32,000 nucleotides of DNA from Pyrodictium abyssi (GTDB taxonomy: Archaea; Thermoproteota; Thermoprotei_A; Sulfolobales; Pyrodictiaceae): contig NZ_AP028907.1 in the NCBI RefSeq assembly GCF_036323395.1, forward strand, positions 1,740,001 through 1,772,000. The letters run 5' to 3'. The position numbers were made by a program, and so were the translations under genes. The notes under the pieces are model-generated. The model ran no database searches and was not told the origin of the DNA. It saw nothing but the letters and a program-made list of their open reading frames with translations. Below, piece by piece: positions 13,729 to 32,000 of the stretch (its first letter is position 1; each line of letters opens with the position of its first letter).

Positions 13729-14066
13729 ACACTATAGCCGCCTCCATAGGGGAAAAGAGGGCTCCGCCGCCGACCCGTAGAGAAGCAGGCTCCAGGACCG
13801 GGCTGCCGGGGGCCAGGCGCGCCCGCTAGCTCCTTGGAGTGGCAAGGCCCCCGGGGGCTGTCTGGTGCCATCTACATGCCGTCCCCTCGGGCTGTAGCCC
13901 CCGGGGGACCGTGAGCCTGGTGTAGGTGCTCTAGCAGCTCTACTGGCTCCTATACCGGGTGCCGCCGGGCCTCCTCCGCCAAGGCCTTCTACGAGGGCGC
14001 CCCACGGGGCCCGGGGATACCTATGTTTCGGTATATTCGCTACGCTACCTCCGGGTGGCGGCTCGG

Positions 14067-14342
14067 GTGGTTAGGGTTAAGACAACAAGTATCTACGTGG
14101 ACCGCGACTTGTGGAAGAGGTTTAGAGACTATGCTAGGAGGAAGGGTATAGAGGCCTCTAGGCTACTAGAGGAGCTCATGCTAGAGGCTATGCTGGAAGA
14201 GGAGGTTCTAAGAGCCCTAGAGGCCCTGGAGGAAAAACCACTCCTAGAGCTCGACTTCGAGCCCGTAGAGCCCCGAGGAGGCACAGTGAGCGAGCTGGTC
14301 AGGGAGACGAGGGATGAGCAGGCCAATAGTATATCTCGATAG
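14067..14342 (+). CDS. vapB: Ribbon-helix-helix (CopG/VapB-type) antitoxin
   Basis: The track ORF 13959-14342 is trimmed to the in-frame GTG at 14067, about 30 nt after TATA-like GGTATATTCG. TSIYVDRDLWKRFRDYARRKGIEASRLLEELM is an RHH pattern. The 3' end overlaps the following PIN reading frame by 29 nt. Confidence 0.7.
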   Translation: MVRVKTTSIYVDRDLWKRFRDYARRKGIEASRLLEELMLEAMLEEEVLRALEALEEKPLLELDFEPVEPRGGTVSELVRETRDEQANSISR

Positions 14343-14844
14343 CAGCGCTATAGTCGGGAGGCACGTCCTCGAGCCCGGTAGCCGGTACGTCAGAAGCATA
14401 TACGCACGAGCCTACGGGGGCGAGGCCAAAATCTCGTTCAGCGTATGGAACATCGGAAAGGTGCTGGGAGCCCCGGGACCGGGCTAGAGGGCCAGGGCAG
14501 ACTAGACGAGGAGGCGTGTAGAACTGCTAGGAGGAGGTTCATCGGCGAAACCCGGAGGATGGCGAGAACCGGAACACTCATCCTGGTCCCAGTCACCCCC
14601 AAGGATCCTCCGAGAAGCCTGGAGTGTAACCGAGGAGCACCACGTCTACGCCGCAGACGCCCTACAGGTAGCCTCGGCCAAGCACATCGGGGCAGCAGGG
14701 CTCGCCACCAGGGACCAGAGGCTCCACGAGGCAGCATCAGCCGAGGGCCTCAGAAGCACGCCCCCTCCCCCTAGCCGGGGCAAACGGACCGGCACAGCCC
14801 CCGGGCAGCCTCCTCCCGGGTGGCCACCGCTGCTAGGCTCATAG
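14314..14844 (+). pseudogene. vapC: PIN-domain vapC toxin gene disrupted by two compensating frameshifts
   Basis: The frame-1 N-terminus MSRPIVYLDSSAIV...WNIGKVLGA runs into a TAG at 14485-14487. The middle part GRLDEEACRTARRRFIGETRRMARTGTLILVPVTPK is readable only in frame 0. The C-terminal part ILREAWSVTEEHHVYAADALQVASAKHIGAAGLATRDQRL is back in frame 1. The shifts map to about 14480-14484 and 14596-14605, both at short homopolymer runs. Confidence 0.7.
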
Positions 14845-15073: not shown

Positions 15074-15307
15074 TTGTCTGTCGTCGTGAGCTTCAAGGTT
15101 AGGAGAGAAGTAAAGGAGCTTATGGACAAGTACCGTGACAGGGTCAACTGGGCTGAGGAGCTCCGGAGGTTCGTCGAGGAGAAGATCCGGCAGCTCCGGG
15201 CCGAGGAGAACCTGGCCGAGATACTAGAGGAGCTCAGGAAAGCCGGGTGGAGCGTACCCAAGGGCTTCTCAGTGAAGAGTGTGAGGGAGGACCGTGATAG
15301 CCGTTGA
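15074..15307 (+). CDS. vapB: VapB-type antitoxin (small archaeal type)
   Basis: 77-aa ORF. VSFKVRREVKELMDKYRDRVNWAEELRRFVEEKI resembles the small archaeal antitoxins found upstream of PIN genes. It overlaps the downstream PIN ORF by 14 nt. Confidence 0.7.
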   Translation: MSVVVSFKVRREVKELMDKYRDRVNWAEELRRFVEEKIRQLRAEENLAEILEELRKAGWSVPKGFSVKSVREDRDSR

Positions 15308-15692
15308 TGCCTCCGCCATCGTGGCCTTCTTCCTACGCGAAGAGGGCTGGGAGAAGCTAGCAGAGTACATGCGTGAGACAGTATCCCTAGACCTCGTCGT
15401 GAAGGAGTTCTACAACGCTGTCTGGAAGGCGGTACGCCTCCACAGGCTAGGCCCCGACGACGCCGAGAAAGCTCTAGCACTCTTCAGGAAGTACGTCGAC
15501 GGGAACATGGTCCTGAGGAACGAGCTAGACTACGTGGACAAGGGGTTCAGGATAGCCCTCGAAGAGGGCATAACCGTCTACGACGCCCTATACATAGCCC
15601 TAGCCCTTGAAGAGTCCACACCCCTACTAACACTAGACAGCAGGCAGAGGCACATAGCACAGAAATACGGCATAGCAGTACTCCCGCCCTAG
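15294..15692 (+). CDS. vapC: PIN-domain ribonuclease toxin VapC
   Basis: 132-aa ORF with the PIN acidic residues in the expected contexts: IAVDASAIVAF, VYDALYIALAL and LLTLDSRQ. Confidence 0.85.
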   Translation: MIAVDASAIVAFFLREEGWEKLAEYMRETVSLDLVVKEFYNAVWKAVRLHRLGPDDAEKALALFRKYVDGNMVLRNELDYVDKGFRIALEEGITVYDALYIALALEESTPLLTLDSRQRHIAQKYGIAVLPP

Positions 15693-16045: not shown

Positions 16046-16339
16046 ATGTTTATCGCCGGGATGCGCTCCAAGGCCCCCTCCCGGGGGACCCTGTTGCCTA
16101 GGTACACGACTATCCGGGTCTCTGTCGAGGACAAGAAGAGACTCGAGAGGCTAGCCAGGCTCATGGGGTGGAGCCTTAGCGAGGCCCTAAGACACGCCAT
16201 AGAGGTGGCCGAGAGGGAGCTTCTAGAGAAGCACCGGAGCGACCTCAACGCCGTACTAGACTCGCTACGGCATGCCCGGGACCTGGGGGAGACCAGCGCC
16301 GAGGAGCTAGATAGGCTCCTCTACGGTGAAGCTGAGTGA
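16046..16339 (+). CDS. vapB: Ribbon-helix-helix (CopG-family) antitoxin
   Basis: 97-aa ORF. TTIRVSVEDKKRLERLARLMGWSLSEALRHAIEVAE is an RHH pattern. The stop overlaps the next start in the sequence GTGA. The start may instead be the ATG at 16061. Confidence 0.8.
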   Translation: MFIAGMRSKAPSRGTLLPRYTTIRVSVEDKKRLERLARLMGWSLSEALRHAIEVAERELLEKHRSDLNAVLDSLRHARDLGETSAEELDRLLYGEAE

Positions 16340-16830
16340 CAGTCTTAGTAGACACCGGCGTCTTCTTCGCATACTATAGCCTGAGAGACAAGTACCACAT
16401 GGACTCCGTGGCACTGGTAATCCACATGGCGGAGGGGAGGTGGGGGAGAGCGTACATCACGAGCCACGTACTCGACGAGACGCTCAACATCCTAAAGTAC
16501 AGGGTGTCGAGCAGCACCGCCCAGGCGTTCATAGAGGCCTTCATAGACCGGGGCATAGTACGCGTAATCCACGCCGACAGGGAGACCGAGGAGGAGGCGC
16601 TGAAGCTGTTCCGGGAGAACATCGGCAGGAGGGGCTTCAGCTACACCGACGCAGTGACAGTAGCCACCGCTAGGAGGTACGGCATAACACACCTCCTATC
16701 CTACGACGTCAGGTCGTTCACCGGCCTAGTAGAGAAAATCACCGGCCCAGGCTACTGGGACACCCTGCCAAGCCAGGAGAAAGACAGGATACTCGGGCTA
16801 CTAAGACAGCGCAGAAAGAGGCACACCTAG
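16336..16830 (+). CDS. vapC: PIN-domain ribonuclease toxin VapC
   Basis: 164-aa ORF with VLVDTGVFFAYY, SHVLDETLN, SYTDAVTVATA and LLSYDVRSF in PIN-typical order. Confidence 0.85.
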   Translation: MTVLVDTGVFFAYYSLRDKYHMDSVALVIHMAEGRWGRAYITSHVLDETLNILKYRVSSSTAQAFIEAFIDRGIVRVIHADRETEEEALKLFRENIGRRGFSYTDAVTVATARRYGITHLLSYDVRSFTGLVEKITGPGYWDTLPSQEKDRILGLLRQRRKRHT

Positions 16831-16962
16831 AGCCCAAACCCGCCCCCGCGCGGCAGCCCAGCCCGGTCAGCGTCTTGCCCTCACGCCGCGGAGCCGGGGC
16901 CGGTGCCAGGCTCCCGGGGACGATTGCGGCCCGTGGCTGATGCAAGGTTGTCTAGGGCCGCG

Positions 16963-17417
16963 GATGAAGCCCCCTACGGGGCAGGCTCGTCCTCGACGCT
17001 AGCGTGCTGATAGAGATCCTAGCCGGGAGCAAGCCCGCCGCAGCACTCGTAGACTCCATAGTATCCGGCGAAGCCGAGGCATACGCTACGAGGCTCGGGC
17101 TCACAGAGGCGCTCCACGTGACGTGCAGGCTCTGGGGCTAGGAGAAGGCGCAGGAGAGGATACAGGCCCTCATAGACTCCGGGATGGCCACGATAATCGA
17201 GGACGAGGAGGTATGGAGCCTCGCGGCGAGCTGCAAGTGCAGAATACCCATAAGCCTAGGAGACTGCTACACGCTCGCAGCAGCCAAGAGGTACAGGCTC
17301 AGACCCCTCTTCCTAAAACCCGAGAAAGAGCTGCTAGAGAGCGCCGAGAGGATAAGACAGTGGCTAGACGGGGACCCCGAGTACCTCACCCCACCGCCCC
17401 CACGTAGCTCCGGCTGA
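16963..17417 (+). pseudogene. vapC: Decayed PIN-domain vapC gene (two frameshifts plus an in-frame TAG), with no cognate antitoxin ORF
   Basis: ATG at 16963 (frame 1, MKPPTG), then RLVLDASVLIEILAGSKPAA in frame 2, then ALVDSIVSGEAEAYATRLGLTEALHVTCRLWG-TAG(17139-17141)-EKAQERIQALIDSGMATIIEDEEVWSLAASCKCRIPISLGDCYTLAAAKRY in frame 0, ending at the TGA at 17415-17417. Confidence 0.65.
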
Positions 17418-17471: not shown

Positions 17472-17482
17472 AGGAGGAGGGG
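17472..17482 (+). promoter_or_regulatory. Shine-Dalgarno-like AGGAGGAGGGG
   Basis: Purine-rich GGAGG-containing block ending 3 nt before the TTG at 17485. Confidence 0.45.
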
Positions 17483-17484
17483 CC

Positions 17485-19095
17485 TTGCCACAGCGCTCCC
17501 CAGAGCACGAGAAACAGGACCCTTTTGAACTCCTGATCAAGTCCTACGCCCTCGTACCCTTATCCGGCGAGAGAGACTCCAGGGGGCAGCCCGGGCGCTG
17601 GAGCCAGGAGCTCAGCGAACTAATCATGAAGGTTACAGGAGCGCGTAGCAAGCAAAGCCTGTGGAACGAGATCGAGAAGCACCTGGAGAGAATAGACGCG
17701 GCTGTAGAGGCCAGGGCCCCGAGTATAGGGGATATGAGGCTCCTACACTGCAGCACGGTAGTACTGGCACTCCAGACGCTCGTCGCCTACCGGCCAGGGG
17801 TGAGGCTATGGGTAGGCCTAGCAGCCTACGCCGCCGCCCAGACCCTCCACCACGCGCTCCAAGCCCGAAGCCAGCAGCTGCCAGGGGTCAAAGAGCTAGC
17901 AGAAGCACTGAAAGCCGAAGTACTAAGGATCACCGGTAGACGCGTAGAGCCAAAGGCAGGCACCGGGGCACCCGCATCCTTCTACGAGGCGCTCGCAGAA
18001 GCCACGTGGAGGGTAGTACAGGCTGAGCAAGAGTTCGCCGACAGCCTCGGAGCAGCCCTCCTCACGCCAGCGCCCACCCGGGCCCGGGCACTCACCAGGA
18101 ACATAGACAGGGCGTACCGGGAGCTAGCCAGGCTAGTCGACGGCTATAGGCAGGGCCGCGGCGGGGACAGCATCAGCCCACACGCCAGGATAAAGTGCAG
18201 AGTTAGACTGGCGAGCCTCACGAGGTACGCCAACACATGCAGGAAGCTACACAGCCAGCTAGCAAGGCTAGTAGAAGCACTCAGCCACGAAGACACACTA
18301 GAAGCAGTAAACCTAGCCGACCAGCTCACATCCCAGGGCTACGGCCTCCTAGCCCCACAGCTCGGAAGGCTGCTCGAGACAATCCGCCACACCGAGGCAG
18401 CGGCCCTAGAATACGCGGTTACGGCAGCCCTCATAGCCCAGGGCTACAGGCCACTGCCACACCACCGGGGCAAAGGAGCCCAGAGGGAAGAGATAGACTT
18501 CCTAGGCTGCAAAGCCACGGAGACACACAAGTGCGCCGAAGCACTAGCCCTAGAGGCAAAGCTAACACTCAAACAGGGACATGACCCCTGCAAGATAGCA
18601 GCCGAAACCCTCCAGAAGCTACAAAACCACAGCGCCCTAGACCCGAAGCCAGAGAAGCTAAGACTAGTAGTCACATGGCTCGGAGCCCAGAAAGAACAAC
18701 CCAAAACACAGACGCTAACAGTGAGATGCACCAGCCCCACCCAGGACAACACCATAGAATGCAGCCAAGACGACGGCAAAAACCGGGAAGAACTACTAGA
18801 CGCCGTCACGGAGCTATGCAGGCAACACAGCCTCAAAGAAGTAACCATAGAGCTCGTGCACGCCTATAGCCTGGTAAGCAGCTACTGCAGCCAAGCAATG
18901 ATACTAAAACACAACGACTGCAACAAGTGGAAGAAAACAATACAGAAACAAGCCCCCAAGACAAAGCGCCGAAACACCCGCAAAACCCTCCAGGACCAGC
19001 AGGAGAGCCCCGCTAGCACACCCCCGGGGGCAGGCAGCAGAGAGGCCCCGCCAACAGCACAAAGGGACACCAGGCATCAGAAGAAGCAGCAATAG
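17485..19095 (+). CDS. Orphan 536-aa protein: helical N-terminal region, PD-(D/E)xK-like nuclease motif, Cys-rich segment, basic low-complexity tail
   Basis: A 1.6-kb open frame with an SD-like element. E309, D338 (EEIDFLG) and E357-A-K359 (ALALEAKL) are arranged as in Hjc/NucS/Mrr-type nucleases. No family recognised by eye. Confidence 0.65.
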   Translation: MPQRSPEHEKQDPFELLIKSYALVPLSGERDSRGQPGRWSQELSELIMKVTGARSKQSLWNEIEKHLERIDAAVEARAPSIGDMRLLHCSTVVLALQTLVAYRPGVRLWVGLAAYAAAQTLHHALQARSQQLPGVKELAEALKAEVLRITGRRVEPKAGTGAPASFYEALAEATWRVVQAEQEFADSLGAALLTPAPTRARALTRNIDRAYRELARLVDGYRQGRGGDSISPHARIKCRVRLASLTRYANTCRKLHSQLARLVEALSHEDTLEAVNLADQLTSQGYGLLAPQLGRLLETIRHTEAAALEYAVTAALIAQGYRPLPHHRGKGAQREEIDFLGCKATETHKCAEALALEAKLTLKQGHDPCKIAAETLQKLQNHSALDPKPEKLRLVVTWLGAQKEQPKTQTLTVRCTSPTQDNTIECSQDDGKNREELLDAVTELCRQHSLKEVTIELVHAYSLVSSYCSQAMILKHNDCNKWKKTIQKQAPKTKRRNTRKTLQDQQESPASTPPGAGSREAPPTAQRDTRHQKKQQ

Positions 19096-19487: not shown

Positions 19488-20891
19488 TTAGCTGGCTATC
19501 TTCCTGTAGACCAGTACGGCGGCGACCACGGCTATTATCATGCCTATGATGCCGGCTGCTACGCCTATCATCGCTAGCCTGGAGGCGCCGCCAGCCTTGT
19601 CAGCAGCGTTCTGCACCTGCGTCTGCAGCTGCGCCGCGGTAGCCTGGAAGCTGTCCACGCTGCTCTTCAGCTGGTTGATAGCGTCCTGTAGCTGGCCGAT
19701 GCTCTGCGTAGCCGCCTCCAGCGTGTTGACGCGCTTCTCCAGCGTGTCCACGCGCTCGCCCAGCTTGCCTAGGTCGGCCTGCAGCTTGGCCAGCTTGTCG
19801 CCCAGCTCGTTTATCTTAGCGGACATGTCGTTGAGCTTCGCGGCTAGCTGGTTGATAGCGGCCTGGTCGGCCTTGCCAGCCAGCTGGGCCTGTAGCCCGC
19901 TTATCTGGTCCTGGAGGTCGCTTAGCGCTGCCTGGAGGTCGCCGAGCTGGGCTGCGAGCTTCTCCAGCTCCGCCCGGGCGGCCTTGGTGTCCAGCTGGGA
20001 GGCCAGCGTCTTCACCTGCTCGGCTAGGCTGGCCACGAGGCTGTTCAGCTGGGCTATCTCCTGGTCCACGTACTCCTTGCTAGCAGCCGCCGCGAGCTTA
20101 GCGTCAACCATGCTGGCTATCTCCTGCCTAGCCTGCTCCAGCTGCTGCTGCACGTCCTGGCTGAGCGCAGCTAGCTGCGCCGCGACCTGCTCGGTCACAG
20201 TAGCGTTGAGCTGCTCCAGGGCCTGCTGTAGGCCGGCCACCTGGGCCTCTAGGCTCTTTATCAGGGACTCTAGGCTGGTTATCTTTATCGTGCCCACGTT
20301 GACGCGCTCAGCAGTGCCCACGGTTATGTCGGCTATCCTGGCGGTCGTGTAGCCGGGCTTCTCTACGCGTAGACGGTAGGTGCCAGCGCTCACCTGCACA
20401 GCGAAGCTGCCGCCGCTGCCAGTGGTAGCCTCCTTCACCACCGCGCCGGTGGCGGCGTCGCAGACGTACACTGTGGCGCCAGCCACTGGGTTGCCGTTCT
20501 CGTCAACCACTGTGCCGGTTATCTCGCCGCCGCTCTGCAGGGTGAACGACACGGTCTGCTGCTCGCCGGTGTTAGCGTTCTTGACCAGTATCTGGTAGGC
20601 GCCGCTCGGCCAGTCAGAGGGCAGCTTGATGCTCCAGGAGAAGCTGCCGTCAGCACCAGCGCTTATCTGGTCGAAGACCCTGGTCTCGCCGTTCGGGTCC
20701 ACGAGCTTTATCGTTATCAGGGCGTTAGCGTCCGCCTGGCCGCTCAGCACCAGCGTGTCGCCGGGGAAGTAGACAGCCTTATCCGTCGAAGCGCTCAGCG
20801 CGGCAAGCGCGACCATCGCCTGTGAGGCGGCGAGCAGCACTAGGGCCGCAGCTAGTAGGCCCGTTACCCTTCCTGCACTTATACCCGTCAT
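19488..20891 (-). CDS. S-layer stalk/anchor protein (SlaB-like architecture): signal peptide, two beta-sandwich domains, long coiled coil, C-terminal TM anchor
   Basis: 467-aa ORF with a hydrophobic N-terminal signal (GLLAAALVLLAASQAMVALAALSAS) and an Ig-like domain. A carboxypeptidase-regulatory-like domain follows (GEITGTVVDENGNPVAGATVYVCDAATGAVVKEATTGSGGSFAVQVSAGTYRLRVEKPGY). After it come about 240 residues of A/Q/L-rich heptads and a terminal TM helix MIGVAAGIIGMIIAVVAAVLVY plus RKIAS. Confidence 0.7.
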   Translation of the reverse strand: MTGISAGRVTGLLAAALVLLAASQAMVALAALSASTDKAVYFPGDTLVLSGQADANALITIKLVDPNGETRVFDQISAGADGSFSWSIKLPSDWPSGAYQILVKNANTGEQQTVSFTLQSGGEITGTVVDENGNPVAGATVYVCDAATGAVVKEATTGSGGSFAVQVSAGTYRLRVEKPGYTTARIADITVGTAERVNVGTIKITSLESLIKSLEAQVAGLQQALEQLNATVTEQVAAQLAALSQDVQQQLEQARQEIASMVDAKLAAAASKEYVDQEIAQLNSLVASLAEQVKTLASQLDTKAARAELEKLAAQLGDLQAALSDLQDQISGLQAQLAGKADQAAINQLAAKLNDMSAKINELGDKLAKLQADLGKLGERVDTLEKRVNTLEAATQSIGQLQDAINQLKSSVDSFQATAAQLQTQVQNAADKAGGASRLAMIGVAAGIIGMIIAVVAAVLVYRKIAS

Positions 20892-20945
20892 GGCCTATCC
20901 CACCTACTCACCATTTCCTCTACTCTCTACACCACACGCCCATAC

Positions 20946-20953
20946 TATATATA
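20946..20953 (-). promoter_or_regulatory. TATATATA box upstream of the stalk gene
   Basis: Lies 55-62 nt upstream of the ATG at 20891. GGTGAGTAGGTGGG (SD-like) sits between the box and the start codon. Confidence 0.45.
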
Positions 20954-21064
20954 GGGGTTTACCCCCAACACACAACTCTATACACATGCATCCGAAAACA
21001 ATCACACACTAAGCCAGAGGCTAAAAAGCAGAAACGCCCCGAGAAGCGCGGAGACACGGTTGTA

Positions 21065-21069
21065 AAAAG
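21065..21069 (-). terminator. Oligo-T tract (CCCTTTTTAC on minus strand) after the canopy gene; a second T5 lies at 21023-21027
   Basis: T5 runs 55 and 95 nt downstream of the stop at 21123-21125. A short AACCCTC/GAGGGTT inverted repeat directly follows the stop. Confidence 0.4.
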
Positions 21070-21122
21070 GGTGTGGGGCAACCCGCTCTAGCCCCCACGC
21101 GTCCTGGGAAACCCTCGGAGGG

Positions 21123-24100
21123 TTACTGGCCTACCTCGATTGACAGCTCTACAGTCTTCTCGGCTAGAGGCTCCATCGTTGTCAGGTCCTTCCACAGCAG
21201 CACCTTCACCGTGTAGGTGCCGGGCTCAGTCAGCACCGGCGTCATCGCAGGCACGTTCACTACGCTGCCAGCCTTCACCACGGACACGCCAGCGTTGAAG
21301 GCCACCGGCACACCGTCCTTGTACACCTGCACTATCACGTACACCTGCACGTCCTCAGCAGCAGTGTTCTCCACCGGTATCACTATCATGGCCTGCTTGC
21401 CAGGCTTCACCTTGCTTATGGTCTCGCCGGTCATCGGGTCCTTCACAGCCACCTTGGTTGTGTCGGGCATCAGCGGCCTACCAGCCACAGCAGCGCCGGT
21501 CACCTTGAAGCTGCCCTTCACCTCGACGTTCTCCTCGCCGTTGGCGCCCAGCTTGTCCACGTACTCTACGTAGACTGTGCTGCCGGCGGGCGCGTATATG
21601 GTGTTGGTCTTACCTATGTCGGCTGGGTTGTCGCTCAGCCTTATCAGGTTGCTGAACACACCAGTGTCTGGGCCGGTCTCTACTAGGGTTATGTTCTTCC
21701 TTATGTTGAGGGCGTCGCTGTACACTATTACCCATATGGTGTCTACGCTGTTGGAGTCCTTGTTGGCGTCGAAGTCCTTCACCTTTATCTCTACTACGCT
21801 GTTGGGCTGTGCCTGCTCTGGCACCTCTATGCTACCGGTCTCGGTGTAGACGTTGACTATCTTGCTTATCACCTTCTCCTGGCCGTTAGCGTCTACCAGG
21901 TCCTTGTAGACTATTACTACGCTGTCTACCGGGTTCACTAGTGTGTCGCTGAGCTGTAGCTCGAAGACGAATGTGCCGTTGTCGCTTGTGCCGGTCGCGC
22001 TGCCTGGGTAGACGTAGGCTATTGCCTTGGTTAGTGTGTCCTGTGCAGCCTTGCTGCTGGATGCTAGTAGCCTGGAGTCAGCTATGGATGTCTTGTTGAG
22101 CACGTAGCCAGCTGCTACACCCGCTAGGTCTGGGTCGTAGACTACTATCTTTATCTTGCCGTATGGGCTGACCTTCTCAGGTGTCACAGTCACCTCAGCA
22201 GTGTGGCTGGATACCTTGAAGCTGTCGCTGCTGCTTACTGTCACTATGGAGCCGCGTACGCTGCCCTTCGCTACTGGGTCGGTGTAGCCTATGGTTATCA
22301 GCTTGCCTATGCCCTCAGAGGCCTTGCCGGAGCCGTATATTAGCTCGAGCAGAGCCTTGGCAGGTATCTCTAGCTTGAACTTGCCGGACTCTACCTCCTT
22401 GAACTTGTAGCCAGCGTCGGTTATCTCCTTGACTGTTAGGCTGGTCTTGGTGCTGCCCTCAGCGCTTAGGCTGAAGGTTAGCCCGCTGGGTAGTGCATCG
22501 TTGCCAGCGCCAGGTATTGTGTCTAGGTCTGGCTCGTACAGCACTATCGTCACGTTGTCGGTCAGCTTGTCTACTATGGTGGGCTCTATTGCTAGTGTCG
22601 CGGACTCTGGGGACTTGACCTGCAGCTCTATTGTCACGTTCTTGTTCACGCTTGTGTCGTTGTACATTATCACTAGCTTGCCGTAAGGCATGTCGCTCCT
22701 AGTTAGTGTTATGTTCTTGCCCTCAATGGTTATGTTCACTGTGCCATCGCTGAAGTATGTTATGTTCAGCGTGCCCTCGAACACGCCAGTGTTTATGTCG
22801 GTCTCAGCTATGGTTACCTTCTGTGGTGTTGCACTGCTCTCGCCCTGCCTTAGGAAGTAGAAGAACAGCGTCACGGTGTCCGGCTTGGAAGCGTAAGTGT
22901 TCGCGTCGCTGTCGTCCACCTCCACCTTGTAGACCACGCTCACGTCTGCACCGTTGGCTGCCGCTATTGGTATGCTGTCAACCGGTATCTTGTTACCGTT
23001 AGCGTCTTCAGCATAGACCTTCACAGTGCCCTGGACAGCAGTTATCTCGATGGTGTTGTTATACCACTGATCATTCAGCGTGTCGTATACGTCTACCTCT
23101 ATCTTGTTGCCGTTAGCTAGGCCTAGCTGGTTCAGGTATAGCTGTATGTTGTAAGTGCCGGTGTTCACGTCGCTCTCGTAGAAGCTCCTCACTATGAATA
23201 CCTTCTCTAGGTCGGTGCTAGTTATCAGTGCGTCGTTCTTCTTTATGTACACCTTGGCTACTGTTAGACCATTGGTACCACCGTAGCGTATCTCGGCATA
23301 GTTCTGCCCACTAGGTATCTCTATGTATAGGAACTCCTTAGCCGCGGCATCTAGGTTGAGGTTGCCGGAGCTTAGTGTCATTGTTACTACCGCGTCCTTG
23401 CCAGCAGTGTTGGGCAGGCTCACCGATACTGGGTGGAACTTGACTGATGTTGCTGCAGACCTCTCTACCTGTGTACTGTCTACAGCATACTTGTCTGTGT
23501 ATGTTGACACTATCTTAGCGACGCTACCATTTACGTATATTATGCCGTTGGTTGTGTCTATGCTAGCAGCGCTGCTGGTCTTCGGTAGTAGTATCTTTAG
23601 GGTCTTACTGAACTGGCCAGCTGTGCTGCCAGAGTCTAGGGTTACTAGCTCGCTTGCAAGCTTGTTGTCATTCTTGTCGTAGAGTGTCACATTCACAGTC
23701 ACAGCTGCAGCGTCTATGTCCTCCACGCTTATTGTGAAGCTGTCACCAGGCTTTACTGTGGACGGTACAGTTATTGTACCGGTCTGTAGCCTTATGAATG
23801 CATCTACCTCTACGCTGCCCTCGCCAGCACCAGCGCCCTCAGTCATCCTCAGCACTACTGGAGCACCGCTTACAGCCACGTTGTCCTGTACTAGGAAGTC
23901 GTAGCTGGGCACCTCGTCCCTACCAGGCATGTACAGCTTAGCTACTAGCACGCCGCTATCCTCGCTCACGGAGTCTATGAACGCATACTGCTCTGGCGTG
24001 TAGGTCACGTTTATTGCGCCAAGCTCTGTCTTGTACTTCACAGCGTTCTCGAAGCCGTTAATGTTAGCAGCTACTTTGGCTGGAATGAATGTTACCTTCA

Positions 24101-25289
24101 CACTGTTAATGGTTACGTTTATCCAGCTGCTGCCCGTTAGAGTGCTGGTCCAGTTGAATACCTTGAACTCGTTAGTACTGTTTGTCAGCACTACGTATAC
24201 TGTACGGTTGTACCACGTACCAGCAGTACCATTTATAGCACTTATGCCTAGCTTCACGAATATTGTAGCGTTCTCTGGCACTTTAGTTGCATTGACGTAT
24301 AGCGCAGCCCACGTGGTAACGTTTATCAGCTGTACCGTTATGTTTATGTCATTTAGGCCATTGGCTAGGTCGCCGGCACCCGCCTCCATGGCTGCCGCCT
24401 TCATGGCAGCACTGCCATCAGCTGTCATGTTGAATATTGGTGTAACTTTAGTGCCAGCAGTCGATATTGTTACACCTACGCTACTGTTAGTGTAAGTTAG
24501 GCTGTCGGTCGCTGTTGGATCAGCTAACAGGGTTGGATCAGACATCTTGAATTCTACTGACTTCTCCGGAGCTATGTCTAGGTATCCGGTGGTCTGTAGC
24601 TCTGCAGCACTCGGACCTAGGTCTATTGTCACTGTTTGGCTGCCTAGGTCGCCTGCGTCTACTGTTACCTTTATGCTGTCTGCGCCGCTCACGTAGAGGG
24701 CGTTTACCAGTGGCCATGCCTTAGTTATGTTGCTCGTGTCGAAGAAGTTGTTGCTGCCACCTCCCACCTCGTATATATTTGTTATGTTTATTACCTTCTT
24801 GCCGTCTATTGCCAGTATTGGGCTTGTCCTCGATAGGCTGTCAGTCAGGTTGCTGGTTATGTAGAACGCTACCTTGCCTACCTTGTTCATGTCATAGTCG
24901 TAGTAGTTTGTGCCGTCAGTGGCGTTTATCTTGGTGCTGCTTGTGTTGGCATAGTCGAAGCCGAATACGCCATACTTGAATGTCTCGTTGAGCGCTATGA
25001 ATACGTGCCACTCGTTGCCGCCTACATAGCCCGCTATTAGTGTGTAGGGCTCGTTTGTGAGCGGGTTGCCGCTGGCGTCGTAGGGTGTTACGAGCACGGC
25101 TGGATACTTGTCGCTAGGCAGGTTCTTAATCTTCAAGAGTATGATGTTGTAGTTGAGCTTTGTCGCTGATACTTCTACTGCTATTGTCTCTGCTGCTGCC
25201 TTGGTTGCTGTTAGTGGGGCTATTATGGGGGCTAGTAGCAGGGCTAGGGTGATTATCGAGGCTATGCGCGTGTTCATGGCTTCTTGCAC
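21123..25289 (-). CDS. Large secreted, heavily N-glycosylatable surface protein; probable S-layer outer (SlaA-like) subunit
   Basis: 1388-aa ORF. The ATG at 25277, preceded by GAAAGGAAGGG, is the more likely start and gives a signal-like MNTRIASIITLALLLAPIIAPLTATKAAAE. There is no other TM segment and no C-terminal anchor. The sequence is T/V/N/S-rich and beta-type, with 30 N-x-S/T sequons by my manual count. It lies directly upstream of the coiled-coil anchor gene. No motif proves homology to SlaA. Confidence 0.7.
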   Translation of the reverse strand: MQEAMNTRIASIITLALLLAPIIAPLTATKAAAETIAVEVSATKLNYNIILLKIKNLPSDKYPAVLVTPYDASGNPLTNEPYTLIAGYVGGNEWHVFIALNETFKYGVFGFDYANTSSTKINATDGTNYYDYDMNKVGKVAFYITSNLTDSLSRTSPILAIDGKKVINITNIYEVGGGSNNFFDTSNITKAWPLVNALYVSGADSIKVTVDAGDLGSQTVTIDLGPSAAELQTTGYLDIAPEKSVEFKMSDPTLLADPTATDSLTYTNSSVGVTISTAGTKVTPIFNMTADGSAAMKAAAMEAGAGDLANGLNDINITVQLINVTTWAALYVNATKVPENATIFVKLGISAINGTAGTWYNRTVYVVLTNSTNEFKVFNWTSTLTGSSWINVTINSVKVTFIPAKVAANINGFENAVKYKTELGAINVTYTPEQYAFIDSVSEDSGVLVAKLYMPGRDEVPSYDFLVQDNVAVSGAPVVLRMTEGAGAGEGSVEVDAFIRLQTGTITVPSTVKPGDSFTISVEDIDAAAVTVNVTLYDKNDNKLASELVTLDSGSTAGQFSKTLKILLPKTSSAASIDTTNGIIYVNGSVAKIVSTYTDKYAVDSTQVERSAATSVKFHPVSVSLPNTAGKDAVVTMTLSSGNLNLDAAAKEFLYIEIPSGQNYAEIRYGGTNGLTVAKVYIKKNDALITSTDLEKVFIVRSFYESDVNTGTYNIQLYLNQLGLANGNKIEVDVYDTLNDQWYNNTIEITAVQGTVKVYAEDANGNKIPVDSIPIAAANGADVSVVYKVEVDDSDANTYASKPDTVTLFFYFLRQGESSATPQKVTIAETDINTGVFEGTLNITYFSDGTVNITIEGKNITLTRSDMPYGKLVIMYNDTSVNKNVTIELQVKSPESATLAIEPTIVDKLTDNVTIVLYEPDLDTIPGAGNDALPSGLTFSLSAEGSTKTSLTVKEITDAGYKFKEVESGKFKLEIPAKALLELIYGSGKASEGIGKLITIGYTDPVAKGSVRGSIVTVSSSDSFKVSSHTAEVTVTPEKVSPYGKIKIVVYDPDLAGVAAGYVLNKTSIADSRLLASSSKAAQDTLTKAIAYVYPGSATGTSDNGTFVFELQLSDTLVNPVDSVVIVYKDLVDANGQEKVISKIVNVYTETGSIEVPEQAQPNSVVEIKVKDFDANKDSNSVDTIWVIVYSDALNIRKNITLVETGPDTGVFSNLIRLSDNPADIGKTNTIYAPAGSTVYVEYVDKLGANGEENVEVKGSFKVTGAAVAGRPLMPDTTKVAVKDPMTGETISKVKPGKQAMIVIPVENTAAEDVQVYVIVQVYKDGVPVAFNAGVSVVKAGSVVNVPAMTPVLTEPGTYTVKVLLWKDLTTMEPLAEKTVELSIEVGQ

Positions 25290-28651: not shown

Positions 28652-29713
28652 TTGGACAAAATGCTTCAACTTAAACTTAGAGGACTAACGGGAAGAGCCG
28701 TGAGAGTAGCTATCACAGCTTCTGGCGGCGGCCATACGGGTTACGCGATAGCAATCGCAGAACAGCTCTTAACACGGGGCATAGACGTTGTAATAATAGT
28801 AGACCCCGCCGACACCTGGAGCCTAGAAAAGATCAGACACCGCCTGGGAGACCGGGTAGAGATAGCATTCGCGCGACAACTACGAGGCGCACAGGAGAGC
28901 CTCGTAGCCCTGTTACGGCGTCTGCCTACCCGTCTCGCGGACCTTGTCAAAATCCACCAAGTACTAGCAGATACCGACATACTGATATGCACTGGCTCTA
29001 ATCATAGTCTCCTCCCAGCTCTCTATGCCCGTGCACTCGGCAAGCCAGTACTATGCATAGAAGCCGTAGACCGGATAGCGACACGCTCCAAAACCGTAGC
29101 CCTTCTCCACGACTTGGCTGCCGTCCCGGTAGCCCTCCACTGGCCAGCCCAGCGGAAACTCTACAGACGAGCAGCCGTAGTCGGCCCGATCTACGAAAAG
29201 CCTCTCTACAAACCAGCCCAGGGAGACTACATACTCGTAATAACCGGGACAGAGGGGAACCCAGCCCTAGTAAAGAAGCTGGTAAAGACAAGCCTCCAGA
29301 ACATAGTACTCCAGACCGGCAGGACAGTAGATCCACAACTTATAGCAAGACATAAACCTACGTGGAAGGTCTTCCGCTACCACCCAGACATAGCAGCGCT
29401 AATGGCTCGGGCCAAGCTGGTAGTAGCCCACCAAGGCCTCTCCCTAGTAGAAGCGGCATTAGCATATCAGAAACCTGTACTACTAGCACTCAACCCAGAT
29501 CTCCCCCGTACAAGCGGTCTTGAAGATGCAGTTCACTTGGCTCGTTACCTTAATACTAAAGCAGTAAACCCTGCTGAGCTTACACCGAGGCAACTTGAAG
29601 AAAATATATTTGCTGCAACGCAGAGAAGGCCTCCTAGATACCTGCCGGGAGCACATATACTGGCAACACATCTAACATATTTAATGAAATCAATATTAAA
29701 TAAGGAACGTTGA
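28652..29713 (+). CDS. GT-B glycosyltransferase of the MurG / Alg14-Alg13 (GT28-like, Agl24-like) type
   Basis: 353-aa ORF with the N-terminal ITASGGGHTGYAIAIAEQL (GGH loop of MurG/Alg14-type enzymes) and the C-terminal VVAHQGLSLVEAALAYQKPVLLALNP (Glyco_tran_28_C/Alg13-like). The ATG at 28661 is a likely start. Confidence 0.65.
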   Translation: MDKMLQLKLRGLTGRAVRVAITASGGGHTGYAIAIAEQLLTRGIDVVIIVDPADTWSLEKIRHRLGDRVEIAFARQLRGAQESLVALLRRLPTRLADLVKIHQVLADTDILICTGSNHSLLPALYARALGKPVLCIEAVDRIATRSKTVALLHDLAAVPVALHWPAQRKLYRRAAVVGPIYEKPLYKPAQGDYILVITGTEGNPALVKKLVKTSLQNIVLQTGRTVDPQLIARHKPTWKVFRYHPDIAALMARAKLVVAHQGLSLVEAALAYQKPVLLALNPDLPRTSGLEDAVHLARYLNTKAVNPAELTPRQLEENIFAATQRRPPRYLPGAHILATHLTYLMKSILNKER

Positions 29714-30120
29714 CGGCACAACTAGCTGAAGCCAGGTACATCACTAGGGCCAGCCGCTAGGTATCGAAAGAACTAGAGAAGTCAAAGACTAACAAATAGA
29801 GTCAATGAGCCCACAATAGAATTATAGTATTGACGACAAATCATAGAGTGCAGTCCTTTAAGTATTACAACATTGTCTAACAATCTGGCCAAAGACGCAC
29901 CTTCCTACTCGATGGTAATATCCATTGTGTTGTTCCGCTCCATAGTGTACTAGTTACTCTAGTATATCACAAGATAAGTGACGATGAGAAAACATAAAGT
30001 AATAGACATAAGACAAATACACACGCAGCAACACCACACCGTCATTCACTGCCACACAAGCCAGATATATTTCATTCATTTAAGCTAAATTAAATAATAG
30101 CACAAGGTTATTATAATGTT

Positions 30121-31209
30121 ATGGAGGTAGTTGAGATGATACAATGGGATTTATTCAATATCATGATGGACAAGTCTATTAGTGCACGATTACTCAGACT
30201 TGCACTCCTAACCAGGACATATGGACCGCATTATGTTATATTTAAACTTATTAAACGCTTTCTGACTAAGGAAAGAATTATCGGGCTTGATGAAATAGCA
30301 AATATAGTTAGGTACTATTCTGGTTTAAAAGTGGAGAAATATGGCGATAGTGAATACAGAATATATTGGCCTGAAGGTGACTACGTTACCGTAAAGAGTT
30401 ACGAAGAAGTTCTTTTAGTCGCAATTGCGCATAACTTATCCTACAAAGTCGTTGATTCTGAAAGTGCATATCTCTGTAAGAAGTTATTGAGCGAACGATG
30501 TATCGTATTCGATGAGAACTACGTTGAACATGAAGACATAAAAATCTCTAGAAGAACTATAGCTGGGTGTCCTACTTGTCTGGCAGAAACAATGATCCTT
30601 AAAACGCATGACGTTGTACGCCCCTTTGGTAAAAACGTACTAGACATCGGAGCCTGGGTAGGTGATAGTAGCCTTAGATTAGCAAAGCTAGGTGCAAGTA
30701 GAGTAGTCGCAGTAGAACCCAATCCTATGAACTATTCAGAACTTCTACACAACCTTGAGTTAAATCCTCATATAAAGGATGCGATAATTCCAGTACACGC
30801 AGCTGTAGATGAAGACGGCGAGGTAAAAATTTGCTATAATTCCGATTTTAGTGGCGGCAGTTCAATATTTCGTAATGGCAGATATTGCGATATAGTACCT
30901 TCAGTCTCATTCAAGACTCTTATAGAAAAATACGGACCATTTGATATCATTAAGCTTGATTGTAAATGATGTGAGCTTAAAGTGTTAGATGAAATCTCTA
31001 CTATTAAATATAGACCAAAAGTTATAAAATTAGAAATAGATTTAAACTCATGGGGGGCACTGATAGAAGATAACCCAGTAAGAGTCATTGAAAAACTTAA
31101 AGAAGCGGGATACAGTGTACAGACGTATCGTACATTCCCTAGTATACCATATATGAGCCTTATGCAAGTAATTGCTACACTAGAAGATGAAAACAACAAT
31201 GATATATAA
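30121..31209 (+). pseudogene. Second FkbM-family methyltransferase gene, split by an in-frame TGA at 30967-30969
   Basis: Track ORFs 30121-30969 and 30982-31209 are in the same frame. Read through, the junction gives IIKLDCK-TGA-CELKVL, aligned with KLDCEGCEYDII of the paralogue at 26529-27419. SAM motif VLDIGAWVGDSSLRLAKLGASRVVAVEPNP is present. Confidence 0.75.
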
Positions 31210-31222
31210 AATTTATTTATAA

Positions 31223-32000
31223 TTATATGATCTTATGTAGTATCTTTTTATTATAATGTTCTATTACTTTTTGAGGCAATGGGCCAAATTTTCTCTCATC
31301 ATAAGGCTCTAGCCTGGCAATTAAGGTCTTCATGTACTTTATACCTGCCTCATAGAGATCCGATGCGCCATACTCATCTTTTGCGACTTTTTTCGCGAAT
31401 TCAAAGGCTTTTTCTACATCCTCTTGTAGTAGTCTATCAACAATTCCCTTATACTTCCACCATACATGCTTAAAGAAGAGTCTTTCTGGTTTTCTTACAT
31501 CACAGAAGTGATAACCTAGCGGTTCTCTGATATATACTACTTTATACATGTGTACTGGAGCTATAAGACTTTCGGTATTTCTTATCTCAACATATTTTAG
31601 CTTCCTAGACCATGTATATAGCCAATGCTCTACATGCATGGGATTAGGACATAAATGATATATGTCTCCACAGAACCGTATAAACGGCCAGTATACCAAG
31701 TAGTATAGTTTCCTGTCCGTTACTTCTATAATTTCTCTAATAGTTTTTACAAGCTTTTCATCGGCAACAAAATCGGCATCCCAAATTAAAATCCATCTAT
31801 ATCTTGCTTCTCTTAGACCGAGGTTACGAGCCTTAACTAGATCACCAGGTGGCAACTTATAGAACCTTATAGGGAGTCCATGCTCATTTTCAATCTTTCT
31901 ATAATATGTGGCGTATTGTCAAAAGATGAGTCTATAACGATATATTCATCAACTATTTCTTTGATAGATAATAGAGATAACTCTATCCATTCCTCTTCGT
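31223..32000 (-). pseudogene. GT2-family glycosyltransferase gene, frameshifted near 31895-31899 and running off the right edge
   Basis: Downstream frame: IENEHGLPIRFYKLPPGDLVKARNLGLREARYRWILIWDADF (DxD). Upstream part in another frame: EEWIELSLLSIKEIVDEYIVIDSSFDNTPHIIE, ending at a TAA at 31867-31869. Restoring one A in GAAAG joins them as DNTPHIIEKIENEHG. Confidence 0.65.

What the first reader, a model, noticed from the sequence alone, without database searches (positions are those of the whole stretch)
17485..19095. Orphan 536-aa protein with a buried PD-(D/E)xK-like motif at the end of the VapBC array: candidate undescribed toxin or defence effector
The ORF is unlikely to be a chance open frame. 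It is 1.6 kb long and is preceded by AGGAGGAGGGG ending 3 nt before its TTG. I recognise no family for the first 300 or so residues, which are helical and A/L/R-rich. Residues 309-359 (nt 18409-18561) carry E309, then D338 at the head of a hydrophobic strand (EEIDFLG), then E357-A-K359 at the end of another (ALALEAKL). This E...D...ExK layout matches Hjc/NucS/Mrr-type PD-(D/E)xK nucleases. Eight Cys lie between residues 342 and 479, and the tail is K/Q/R-rich and probably disordered. The gene follows a dead vapC on the same strand after a 67-nt gap. A helical N-domain plus a nuclease-like core in a toxin-antitoxin neighbourhood resembles many defence effectors, but I cannot name this architecture.
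Basis: partly seen in the sequence, partly recalled or inferred. Interest (0 to 1): 0.75.

Follow-up and report, generated by a model that had tools for sequence, protein, structure and literature searches.

The report
Orphan archaeal protein, probable nuclease domain
This is a real, selectively maintained gene found in only two lineages of hyperthermophilic Pyrodictiaceae archaea; its C-terminal half most likely folds like a restriction-enzyme-type DNA nuclease, but that fold is not proven and its link to the neighbouring toxin-antitoxin genes is not conserved.

Summary
The ORF (17485-19095, +, 536 aa) is real: Pyrodictium abyssi PABY_19280. Its only homologue among billions of proteins is a 483-aa protein (34% identity, full length) from a Pyrodictiaceae MAG, which is under purifying selection (pN/pS about 0.09). 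No Pfam, NCBIfam, PADLOC, PHROGs or PDB sequence match. E309, D338, E357, K359 and all eight C-terminal Cys are invariant, and the putative active-site block is the best-conserved part (58% vs 29% for the N-domain). [quoted passage not shown] Its best Foldseek matches by probability are MspJI, BstEII and the RPB5 N-domain, but none is significant, so the fold is likely, not proven. The UniRef 'CHAD' label was not reproduced. In P. abyssi the TA array plus this gene is a 5.8-kb insertion relative to a Hyperthermus genome. In the other lineage the gene is a solitary cassette with no TA genes. Verdict: accessory, fast-evolving, stand-alone putative nuclease with a novel helical N-domain. A defence role is plausible but inferred; a TA toxin role is not supported.

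The parts
17472..17482 (+). Purine-rich Shine-Dalgarno-like run AGGAGGAGGGG, ending 2 nt before the TTG start
   Evidence: Read directly from the sequence
17485..19095 (+). Target gene, 536 aa (P. abyssi PABY_19280, WP_338249612.1)
   Evidence: full-length homologue P0002 at 34-36% identity; purifying selection on the homologue
17485..18360 (+). N-terminal all-alpha domain, residues 1-292; no known family; net charge +7; 29% identical to the homologue
   Evidence: DSSP on the AF2 model shows 13 helices in residues 1-292, pLDDT 67-86 over residues 60-190; no Pfam/PDB/Foldseek match
18361..18951 (+). C-terminal Cys-rich alpha/beta domain, residues 293-489; probable restriction-endonuclease-like (PD-(D/E)xK) fold
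   Evidence: AF2 domain model pLDDT 69.2, pTM 0.71, order H-E-E-E-H-E-E-H-E-H-H; Foldseek best prob/TM: MspJI 0.82/0.46, BstEII 0.51; BFVD RPB5 0.96, none significant
18388..18573 (+). Putative catalytic core alpha1-beta3, residues 302-363: E309 (18409-18411), D338 (18496-18498), E357 (18553-18555), K359 (18559-18561)
   Evidence: All four invariant; 58% identity, the best-conserved block of the protein; positions relative to predicted strands
18508..18921 (+). Span holding the eight invariant cysteines (C342, C350, C369, C415, C426, C445, C468, C479); disulfides or metal ligands
   Evidence: 10 of 11 Cys of the whole protein are invariant at 35% overall identity, binomial P = 1.8e-4
18952..19092 (+). 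K/Q/R/P-rich tail, residues 490-536; not conserved, predicted disordered
   Evidence: Absent from P0002; pLDDT below 50
16983..17417 (+). vapC (PIN) pseudogene: in-frame TAG at 17139-17141, no start codon
13729..19487 (+). Accessory island (RHH gene, two intact VapBC pairs, vapC pseudogene, target) inserted between the ACS gene and the surface-protein gene
   Evidence: In Hyperthermus MAG locus L026 the ACS and surf1 orthologues are 339 nt apart; in the window they are 5.76 kb apart. Island genes have GC3 0.62-0.79 against 0.77-0.88 for the core genes on the ACS side, 1-13.7 kb
15074..15692 (+). VapB-like gene (15074-15307) plus PIN/VapC (15294-15692)
   Evidence: Pfam PIN E 9.2e-12
16046..16830 (+). 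RHH antitoxin (16046-16339) plus PIN/VapC (16336-16830)
   Evidence: Pfam RHH_1 E 2.4e-5, PIN E 1.4e-12

Best explanation
The gene encodes a stand-alone, two-domain accessory protein restricted, as far as public data show, to two lineages of Pyrodictiaceae. The C-terminal domain (residues ~293-489) is most likely a very divergent, cysteine-stapled member of the PD-(D/E)xK (restriction-endonuclease-like) fold with an intact active site. E309 lies on helix alpha1, D338 at the start of strand beta2, and E357-x-K359 in strand beta3. Together they would bind Mg2+/Mn2+ and cleave phosphodiester bonds, most probably in DNA. The eight invariant cysteines would stabilise the domain at around 100 C, as disulfides or as a metal site. 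The ~290-residue basic helical N-domain, which matches nothing known, would provide substrate recognition, oligomerisation or regulation, as in solitary Mrr/MspJI-type enzymes that pair a recognition domain with a C-terminal nuclease. The gene behaves as a fast-evolving accessory cassette at variable genomic spots, so a role in genome conflict (restriction-like defence) is the most likely biology.

Shown: the gene is real and under selection; conservation is concentrated on the motif block; the distribution is patchy and the gene sits in an island or cassette.

Inferred: the fold (moderate support), nuclease activity, the roles of the Cys residues and of the N-domain, and the defence function.
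For: Real and constrained: full-length homologue at 34-36% identity; pN/pS about 0.09 among population variants, P = 0.002.

Motif: E309/D338/E357/K359 invariant; the 302-363 block is 58% identical against 29% for the N-domain; only 5 of 20 Asp are conserved, D338 among them.

[quoted passage not shown] The highest Foldseek probability/TM hits are PD-(D/E)xK proteins: MspJI prob 0.66-0.82 and TMq 0.43-0.46, BstEII 0.51, plus PaqCI, BspD6I and 1Y88 (Mrr_cat). In BFVD: RPB5 N-domain prob 0.96, MmcB-like 0.75, 'Restriction endonuclease', DUF2726, Mrr-like and PD-(D/E)XK-like.

Accessory behaviour: absent from 27 syntenic loci of related archaea. UbiD/UbiA are 77%/68% identical between the two hosts, the target only 35%. 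In the window it lies in a 5.8-kb insertion relative to L026. In the other lineage it is a single-gene cassette that sister genomes L012/L013 lack. Codon usage is atypical.
Against: No statistically significant match supports the fold. Foldseek found nothing at E <= 0.001 in PDB or BFVD. PAC2-type chaperones, peptidyl-tRNA hydrolase and HybD rank alongside the nucleases by E-value. Two of the five AF2 domain models failed (pLDDT about 33), and the full-length model is unconfident exactly over residues 265-364. The Pfam Mrr_cat, Hjc and other nuclease models give no hit even at E <= 10. hhalign against Hjc and Mrr profiles is at noise level, although the positive control failed too. With only two sequences, invariance of four residues is weak evidence. 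No defence HMM matches, no conserved partner gene exists, and nothing links the protein to phages or plasmids.
Confidence: 0.5

Rival explanations
1. The C-terminal domain is not a nuclease. It would be some other three-layer alpha/beta fold (for example PAC2/proteasome-chaperone-like), or an inactive restriction-endonuclease-like scaffold used for binding, and the E...D...ExK pattern would be coincidental. The protein would have a structural or regulatory role.
For: PAC2-family and other non-nuclease alpha/beta proteins are the top Foldseek hits by E-value (3gaa, 2p90, 4g4s at E 0.075-0.09). Nothing is significant in any search. E-x(n)-D-x(n)-ExK patterns arise easily by chance. Inactive members of this fold exist (RPB5_N; PMC3424549).
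Against: PAC2-type hits have clearly lower TM-scores (0.22-0.36) and probabilities (0.2-0.35) than MspJI (0.43-0.46; 0.66-0.82). The four residues lie at the canonical structural positions and in the most conserved block. Inactive derivatives usually lose these residues.
Confidence: 0.25
2. It is a selfish or mobile gene, such as a free-standing homing endonuclease or a PD-(D/E)xK-type transposase, that inserts itself between host genes.
For: It is a single-gene presence/absence polymorphism between close relatives. It occurs at two unrelated loci in two lineages. It is close to tRNA-Ser in the MAG. PD-(D/E)xK homing endonucleases are known (I-Ssp6803I; PMC3424549).
Against: There are no terminal inverted or direct repeats at the junctions. 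Homology with the empty sites runs through the shared promoter region to about 55 nt before the start codon, and a different gene (rubrerythrin-like) occupies the site in L013, so this is a cassette swap, not an insertion. There is one copy per genome and no other copies anywhere.
Confidence: 0.08
3. It is a CHAD-domain polyphosphate-binding protein, as the UniRef name says: the helical N-domain would bind polyP granules and the C-domain would act on or near polyP.
For: UniRef100_A0ABN6ZQ37 is named 'CHAD domain-containing protein'. The N-domain is helical, basic (+7; +9 in the homologue) and has roughly 8-9 long helices, which is compatible with two four-helix bundles (CHAD architecture in PMC6537752).
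Against: Pfam CHAD (PF05235) gives no hit at E <= 10 for either family member, while it finds YgiF at 2.9e-22. The profile search of PDB, which holds CHAD structures, finds nothing. No CHAD structure is among the top 50 Foldseek hits. BLAST and hhalign against the YgiF CHAD domain are at noise level, and there is no internal twofold repeat signal. Only 4 of 18 His are conserved. There are no polyP-metabolism genes nearby.
Confidence: 0.07
4. It is a housekeeping DNA-repair or recombination nuclease (Hjc/Hje-, NucS- or Mrr-family orthologue) that is simply too divergent to recognise.
For: There is a local resemblance to the Hjc and Mrr signatures (E...G[YF]...D...E/QxK), and hhalign's best local alignments place E309/GY on the alpha1 Glu/G[FY] of both families.
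Against: It is absent from nearly all Pyrodictiaceae and from every other archaeon. It evolves about twice as fast as neighbouring core genes. It lies in an island or cassette. There is no Pfam Hjc or Mrr_cat hit, and no Hjc structure is among the Foldseek hits.
Confidence: 0.05
5. It is the toxin, or an effector, of the adjacent VapBC-type toxin-antitoxin array, functionally coupled to the upstream genes.
For: It is on the same strand, 67 nt after the last (dead) vapC, with a Shine-Dalgarno-like site and no obvious promoter of its own. The whole block is one insertion.
Against: The only other family member has no TA gene beside it and uses a divergent promoter region shared with an ABC-transporter gene. 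It has no cognate small upstream antitoxin gene; the gene immediately upstream is a pseudogene.
Confidence: 0.05

Closest known systems
Mrr / MspJI-type solitary (Type IV) restriction endonucleases (Pfam Mrr_cat PF04471; PDB 4F0P/4F0Q, 1Y88)
   Same: Stand-alone gene with no adjacent DNA methyltransferase. The architecture is an N-terminal non-catalytic domain plus a C-terminal restriction-endonuclease-like domain. The motif layout is alpha1 Glu followed by 'GY', a Gly-rich loop before the beta2 Asp, and (E/Q)xK in beta3. MspJI is the best structural match by TM-score (0.46) and probability (0.82).
   Different: There is no significant sequence, profile or structural match. The N-domain is a ~290-aa helical domain, not a winged helix (Mrr_N) or an SRA-like domain. 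There are eight invariant Cys and a conserved C-terminal HAY...NDCNKWK element. Modification dependence is untested.
Archaeal Holliday junction resolvases Hjc/Hje (PF01870; PDB 1GEF, 2WCZ, 1OB8, 4TKD)
   Same: An archaeal PD-(D/E)xK enzyme with the E...D...ExK arrangement and similar spacing. Locally, LEAKLT resembles IEVKVT and E..L...GY resembles E..L...GF.
   Different: Hjc is a ~125-140-aa single-domain core gene present in essentially all archaea. This protein is 536 aa, has two domains and occurs in two lineages only. hhalign probability is 0.15%, and no Hjc appears among the Foldseek hits.
CHAD domain proteins (PF05235; YgiF, CtCHAD, SsCHAD)
   Same: A basic, all-helical domain of similar size. 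One database (UniRef) labels this protein CHAD.
   Different: The label was not reproduced by Pfam, a PDB profile search, Foldseek, BLAST or hhalign, and no internal symmetry signal was found. Known CHAD fusions are to N-terminal CYTH/TTM domains and sit in polyP operons (PMC6537752). Here the partner is a C-terminal nuclease-like domain and no polyP genes are nearby.
Single-protein defence nucleases with variable N-domains (e.g. Shedu/DUF4263) and iron-staple nucleases (Cas4/AddB)
   Same: The concept matches: a PD-(D/E)xK effector fused to a variable sensing domain, encoded in variable islands. In Cas4/AddB, conserved cysteines staple the nuclease fold.
   Different: No PADLOC model matches, Shedu included. 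The Cys spacing (342, 350, 369, 415, 426, 445, 468, 479) lacks the C...CX2CX5C pattern of Cas4/AddB (read from the sequence; the pattern itself is from general knowledge).

Membership tests
PD-(D/E)xK (restriction-endonuclease-like) superfamily | [quoted passage not shown] | tested here: met
   The AF2 model of residues 293-489 gives H2-26 / E29-36 / E47-52 / E58-66 / H76-88 / E99-106, followed by further elements; pLDDT 69.2, pTM 0.71. Caveat: confidence is moderate, 2 of 5 models failed, and the alignment has only two sequences.
PD-(D/E)xK (restriction-endonuclease-like) superfamily | Catalytic Asp at the start of beta2 and (D/E)xK in beta3, often with a Glu on alpha1 | tested here: met
   E309 lies in the first helix; D338 is the residue just before strand 2; E357 is in strand 3 and K359 immediately follows it. 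All are invariant in the homologue.
PD-(D/E)xK (restriction-endonuclease-like) superfamily | Statistically significant structural similarity to a known member | tested here: inconclusive
   Best matches: MspJI E 0.10-0.17, prob 0.66-0.82, TMq 0.43-0.46; BstEII E 0.096; BFVD RPB5 E 8.5e-3, prob 0.96. Nothing at E <= 0.001, and unrelated folds are interleaved.
PD-(D/E)xK (restriction-endonuclease-like) superfamily | Significant sequence or profile similarity to a member family | tested here: inconclusive
   No Pfam, NCBIfam, PHROGs or PDB hit. hhalign against Hjc gave prob 0.15% and against Mrr 0.9%, but the true-positive control (Hjc against Mrr) also failed (0.3%), and all scores fall within the shuffled range (z 0.2-0.5).
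PD-(D/E)xK (restriction-endonuclease-like) superfamily | Divalent-metal-dependent phosphodiesterase activity | not testable with these tools
   Needs biochemistry.
Mrr_cat (PF04471) | Match to the family HMM above the gathering score | tested here: not met
   No hit at E <= 10 for the full-length proteins or the isolated C-domains of both members. E. coli Mrr scores 1.5e-39 with the same tool.
Archaeal Hjc (PF01870) | Match to the family HMM; small single-domain protein universal in archaea | tested here: not met
   No Pfam hit; 536 aa with two domains; found in two lineages only.
CHAD (PF05235) | Match to the CHAD HMM | tested here: not met
   No hit at E <= 10; the control YgiF scores 2.9e-22. 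The source of the UniRef name (probably a PROSITE or SMART profile) could not be rerun.
CHAD (PF05235) | Two four-helix bundles related by pseudo-twofold symmetry, with a conserved basic surface (PMC6537752) | tested here: inconclusive
   The helix count and net charge are compatible. There is no internal repeat signal and no CHAD structure among the Foldseek hits, but the N-domain model is of only moderate or low confidence.
VapBC / type II toxin-antitoxin module | Toxin paired with an adjacent cognate antitoxin gene, a pairing conserved across homologues | tested here: not met
   The upstream neighbour is a vapC pseudogene. The homologue has no TA gene beside it. The protein is not a PIN domain.
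Known anti-phage defence systems (PADLOC-DB v2) | Match to any defence-protein HMM | tested here: not met
   0 families at E <= 10.
Transposon / IS element | Terminal inverted repeats or target-site duplications at the insertion boundaries; multiple copies | tested here: not met
   No terminal repeats; the junction shows a cassette swap behind a shared promoter region; single copy.

The most novel reading that the evidence does not exclude
PABY_19280 and its one homologue would found a previously undescribed family of stand-alone conflict or defence nucleases specific to hyperthermophilic Pyrodictiaceae. The family would combine a new ~290-residue helical sensor or recognition domain with an extremely divergent PD-(D/E)xK core stapled by four disulfides or a metal cluster, and it would be exchanged between genomes as a promoter-less cassette dropped behind resident promoters.
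Probability: 0.3. Interest if true: 0.55.

Novelty: new variant of a known kind. Interest (0 to 1): 0.38.

Why it matters
If the nuclease assignment holds, this is a new family-level branch of the PD-(D/E)xK superfamily with a new partner domain, from organisms growing near 100 C, whose defence repertoire is poorly charted and hard to predict by homology. Its invariant eight-cysteine framework could show how this very common nuclease fold is stabilised at extreme temperature. The practical lesson for annotation is narrower but solid. The UniRef 'CHAD' label for this protein is not reproducible. Adjacency to a TA array in one genome is not evidence of functional coupling. The family is so small (two lineages) that only structure determination or biochemistry can settle its function.

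Tried and rejected
1. Family libraries. Pfam, NCBIfam, PADLOC and PHROGs, on the full-length proteins and on isolated domains of both members, gave nothing.

2. PDB sequence searches. Single sequences, the full-length profile, the C-domain profile and the short core segments gave nothing or obviously spurious hits: transhydrogenase, BANP, NEMO coiled coil, summed TPR repeats.

3. Homologue searches. The exhaustive HMMER search of 1.84 billion representatives and the word-indexed search of 5.8 billion proteins found one homologue cluster only. Pattern plus tblastn scans of GTDB genomes, JGI metagenomes and IMG/VR, and tblastn of the phage and plasmid collections, found nothing.

4. The search for homologous proteins with the C-domain alignment returned nothing, not even the two family members. 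I treat this as uninformative, not as a negative.

5. The full-length AF2 model was too poor over residues 265-364, and its Foldseek hits were generic helical bundles.

6. hhalign of the C-domain against an Hjc profile (built from PDB sequences) and an Mrr_cat profile (120 sequences, but all at least 70% identical to E. coli Mrr). Scores were at noise level, the positive control Hjc-vs-Mrr failed equally, and column-shuffle tests gave z 0.2-0.5. The method has no power at these alignment depths.

7. CHAD. BLAST, hmmsearch --max and hhalign against the YgiF CHAD domain, and an internal-repeat test, found no signal.

8. A conserved UbiA-UbiD anchor first suggested vertical synteny between the two loci. 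I rejected this as the main explanation after 27 syntenic loci lacked the gene and both sites proved to be indels or cassettes.

9. Transposon hypothesis: no terminal repeats.

10. ORF 14445-14774 as a possible toxin partner of the RHH gene at 13959: its R/G/P-rich translation and lack of any family suggest it is not a gene.
Full report
**1. The observation**

The ORF at 17485-19095 (+) exists as described: TTG start, 536 codons. It is identical to the annotated Pyrodictium abyssi protein PABY_19280 (BES82361.1 / WP_338249612.1), which NCBI calls 'hypothetical' and UniRef calls 'CHAD domain-containing'.

The 'dead vapC' is real. One reading frame from about 16983 to 17417 encodes a PIN domain (Pfam E 2.8e-9 with the stop masked). 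It is broken by an in-frame TAG at 17139-17141 and has no start codon. The gap to the target is 67 nt. Two intact RHH+PIN pairs (15074-15692 and 16046-16830) and a further RHH gene (13959-14342) lie upstream.

The ORF is not a chance open frame.
- Even with the local T-poor composition, the probability of 536 open codons is about 3e-7.
- A homologue aligns over the full length.
- Population variants of that homologue differ at 6 synonymous and 2 non-synonymous sites (pN/pS about 0.09, binomial P = 0.002).

**2. How rare the family is**

Pfam, NCBIfam, PADLOC, PHROGs and PDB sequence searches give nothing for the whole protein or for either half.

A word-indexed search of 5.8 billion proteins and an exhaustive HMMER search of 1.84 billion cluster representatives find one homologue cluster: P0002/P0004/P0006, 483 aa, 34-36% identity over residues 12-488. 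Raw-DNA scans of GTDB genomes, JGI metagenomes, IMG/VR, GenBank phages and PLSDB plasmids add nothing.

The homologue's contigs (L001-L005) belong to the same organism as L007, a vent MAG labelled 'Pyrodictiaceae archaeon' (97.9% nucleotide identity over 6.7 kb). So both known members are in Pyrodictiaceae.

**3. Conservation pattern**

In the two-sequence alignment (A1):
- The N-domain (residues 1-292) is 29% identical and the C-domain (293-489) 43%.
- The block 302-363, which carries the proposed motif, is 58% identical and is the best-conserved stretch of the protein.
- E309, D338, E357 and K359 are invariant. Only 5 of 20 Asp are conserved, and D338 is one of them.
- Ten of eleven Cys are invariant, including all eight in the C-domain (P = 1.8e-4).
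- The K/Q/R/P-rich tail (490-536) is absent from the homologue and is predicted disordered.

Other invariant elements are RGKGAQ just before D338, LEAKLTLK, HAY, and NDCNKWK at the C-terminus. R295, H302 and E309 are spaced seven residues apart on one long helix.

**4. The fold**

The full-length AlphaFold model (two-sequence alignment) is poor, with mean pLDDT 52.6, and is below 35 across residues 265-364. Its Foldseek hits are generic helical bundles.

Modelled alone, the C-domain reaches pLDDT 69.2 and pTM 0.71. Three of the five models agree and two fail. The order of elements is helix (containing E309), strand, strand (D338 immediately before it), strand (E357 within it, K359 immediately after), helix, strand, followed by further beta/alpha elements. 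[quoted passage not shown]

Foldseek against PDB finds nothing at E <= 0.001.
- The best E-values (0.075-0.1) are shared by PAC2-type chaperones, BstEII and MspJI.
- By probability and TM-score the leaders are MspJI (prob 0.66-0.82, TMq 0.43-0.46) and BstEII (0.51).
- PaqCI, BspD6I and the Mrr_cat protein 1Y88 appear further down the list.

Against BFVD the second-best hit is a viral RPB5 (E 8.5e-3, prob 0.96). The RPB5 N-domain is classified in this fold (PMC3424549). The list also holds MmcB-like, 'Restriction endonuclease', DUF2726, Mrr-like and PD-(D/E)XK-like proteins.

Two libraries therefore lean the same way, but no match is significant. I rate the fold assignment at roughly 60-65%.

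**5. Sequence-profile tests had no power**

I built an Hjc profile from real PDB sequences and an Mrr_cat profile from E. coli Mrr homologues.
- hhalign of the C-domain gave prob 0.15% against Hjc and 0.9% against Mrr. The best local alignments put E309/GY on the alpha1 Glu/G[FY] of both families.
- The positive control, Hjc against Mrr, failed equally (0.3%).
- Column-shuffling placed every real score inside the null distribution (z 0.2-0.5).

These tests neither support nor weaken the assignment.

**6. The CHAD label**

Pfam's CHAD model finds E. coli YgiF at 2.9e-22 but gives no hit at E <= 10 for either family member. The PDB profile search, Foldseek, BLAST and hhalign against the YgiF CHAD domain, and an internal-repeat test are all negative.

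The N-domain is helical and basic, so a CHAD-like architecture (two four-helix bundles; PMC6537752) is not excluded, but nothing here supports it. No polyphosphate-metabolism genes are nearby.

**7. Genomic context**

Upstream of the island the window carries housekeeping genes: menaquinone synthesis, homocitrate synthase, UbiA, UbiD, a K+ channel and ADP-forming acetyl-CoA synthetase. Downstream are two convergent cell-surface protein genes and then glycosylation genes.

*In P. abyssi.* In a Hyperthermus MAG (L026) the ACS orthologue (80% identity) and the surface-protein orthologue are 339 nt apart in the same orientation. In the window they are 5.76 kb apart. So the TA array plus the target form an insertion. 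Island genes have lower GC3 (0.62-0.79) than the core genes on the ACS side (0.77-0.88). The target is extreme, with only 3% T at third codon positions.

*In the other lineage.* The gene is solitary. It lies between an ABC-transporter substrate-binding gene (divergent) and a PEBP gene (convergent, 20 nt away), with tRNA-Ser and a PaREP1 gene beyond and no TA genes. Sister genomes L012 and L013 (UbiD 92-93% identical) keep the flanking genes but lack the target. L013 has a rubrerythrin-like ORF in its place, and L012 has a decayed copy of that ORF.

Homology between occupied and unoccupied sites runs through the shared promoter region to about 55 nt before the start codon, and there are no terminal repeats. 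This is a cassette swap, not a transposition.

*Across relatives.* None of 27 syntenic loci from related archaea holds a homologue. Between the two hosts, UbiD is 77% identical, UbiA 68% and the target 35%.

The gene is therefore accessory, fast-evolving and independently placed. Its proximity to VapBC genes is a feature of one genome only.

**8. Most likely mechanism**

Shown:
- A real two-domain protein that is under selection.
- Accessory-gene behaviour.

Inferred:
- The C-domain is a metal-dependent endonuclease of the PD-(D/E)xK type, structurally closest to Mrr/MspJI-like enzymes.
- The eight invariant Cys stabilise it, as disulfides or as a metal site.
- The helical N-domain recognises the substrate or regulates or oligomerises the enzyme.
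- The biological role is restriction-like defence or another form of genome conflict.

The solitary arrangement, with no adjacent DNA methyltransferase, resembles Type IV enzymes. Modification dependence is pure conjecture.

The rivals are set out separately with their evidence: a non-nuclease alpha/beta domain, a selfish or homing gene, a CHAD/polyP protein, a housekeeping repair nuclease, and a TA toxin.

**9. Comparison and novelty**

It works most like a solitary Mrr/MspJI-type nuclease, but it is not a member of Mrr_cat, Hjc, CHAD, any PADLOC system or a TA module by the tests available. I file it as a new variant within a known kind: a probable new family of the PD-(D/E)xK superfamily with a novel N-domain and a cysteine framework.

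Interest is moderate. Orphan putative nucleases in accessory islands are common, the family is tiny and the fold is unproven. Against that, the hyperthermophilic setting, the invariant Cys framework and the cassette-swap mode are worth a structural and biochemical look.

Noticed in passing
window 29500-32000: GC content drops to 0.35-0.38, against about 0.6 in the rest of the window. The genes here (FkbM-type methyltransferase 30121-30969, GT2 glycosyltransferase 31223-31855) have GC3 of 0.32. This is probably a horizontally acquired glycosylation cluster next to the giant surface-protein genes.
   Followed up: partly
window 17485-19095: Extreme codon bias: T is only 3% of third codon positions (A 30%, C 39%, G 28%), and the coding-strand AT skew is 0.47. 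This is the highest in the window and exceeds that of the neighbouring TA genes. No explanation was tested.
   Followed up: partly
window 16983-17417: The vapC pseudogene is a complete PIN domain in one frame, with a single in-frame TAG (17139-17141) and no start codon. No cognate vapB is visible in 16831-16980.
   Followed up: yes
window 13959-14774: The RHH gene (13959-14342) is followed by ORF 14445-14774, whose R/G/P-rich translation matches no family and is probably not a gene. This RHH therefore appears to lack a toxin partner.
   Followed up: partly
L013 1085-1789 and L012 6365-7044: At the site occupied by the target's homologue in L002, L013 carries an intact rubrerythrin/ferritin-like ORF of about 166 aa (Pfam Rubrerythrin E 3.8e-5). 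L012 carries the same ORF riddled with stop codons. This spot between the PEBP and ABC-transporter genes turns genes over behind a shared promoter region.
   Followed up: partly
L026 3000-18500 compared with window 500-20900: The Hyperthermus MAG has the same housekeeping genes as the window (HCS, DUF2153, ARMT1-like, Band7, Roadblock, K+ channel, UbiD, UbiA, MarR, ACS, surface protein) but in a rearranged order. The UbiD-UbiA pair is conserved across most of the Thermoproteota loci fetched.
   Followed up: partly
window 18367-18411 (residues R295, H302, E309): Three invariant residues are spaced exactly seven apart on the long helix that leads into the putative active site. They would lie on one helical face, so R295 and H302 may be additional active-site or substrate-binding residues.
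   Followed up: no
L002 9398-10809 (also L001 2448-2534): The homologue's locus has a tRNA-Ser(TGA) and a PaREP1-family gene just beyond the convergent PEBP gene. The same arrangement is kept in L012, which lacks the target, so these genes are not linked to it.
   Followed up: partly
window 19488-25289: Two convergent surface-protein genes. One encodes a 467-aa protein with MG2 and CarboxypepD_reg domains, a long coiled coil and a hydrophobic C-terminal anchor. The other encodes a 1388-aa protein with lower GC (about 0.5). The 467-aa protein's Hyperthermus orthologue is only 26% identical.
   Followed up: no
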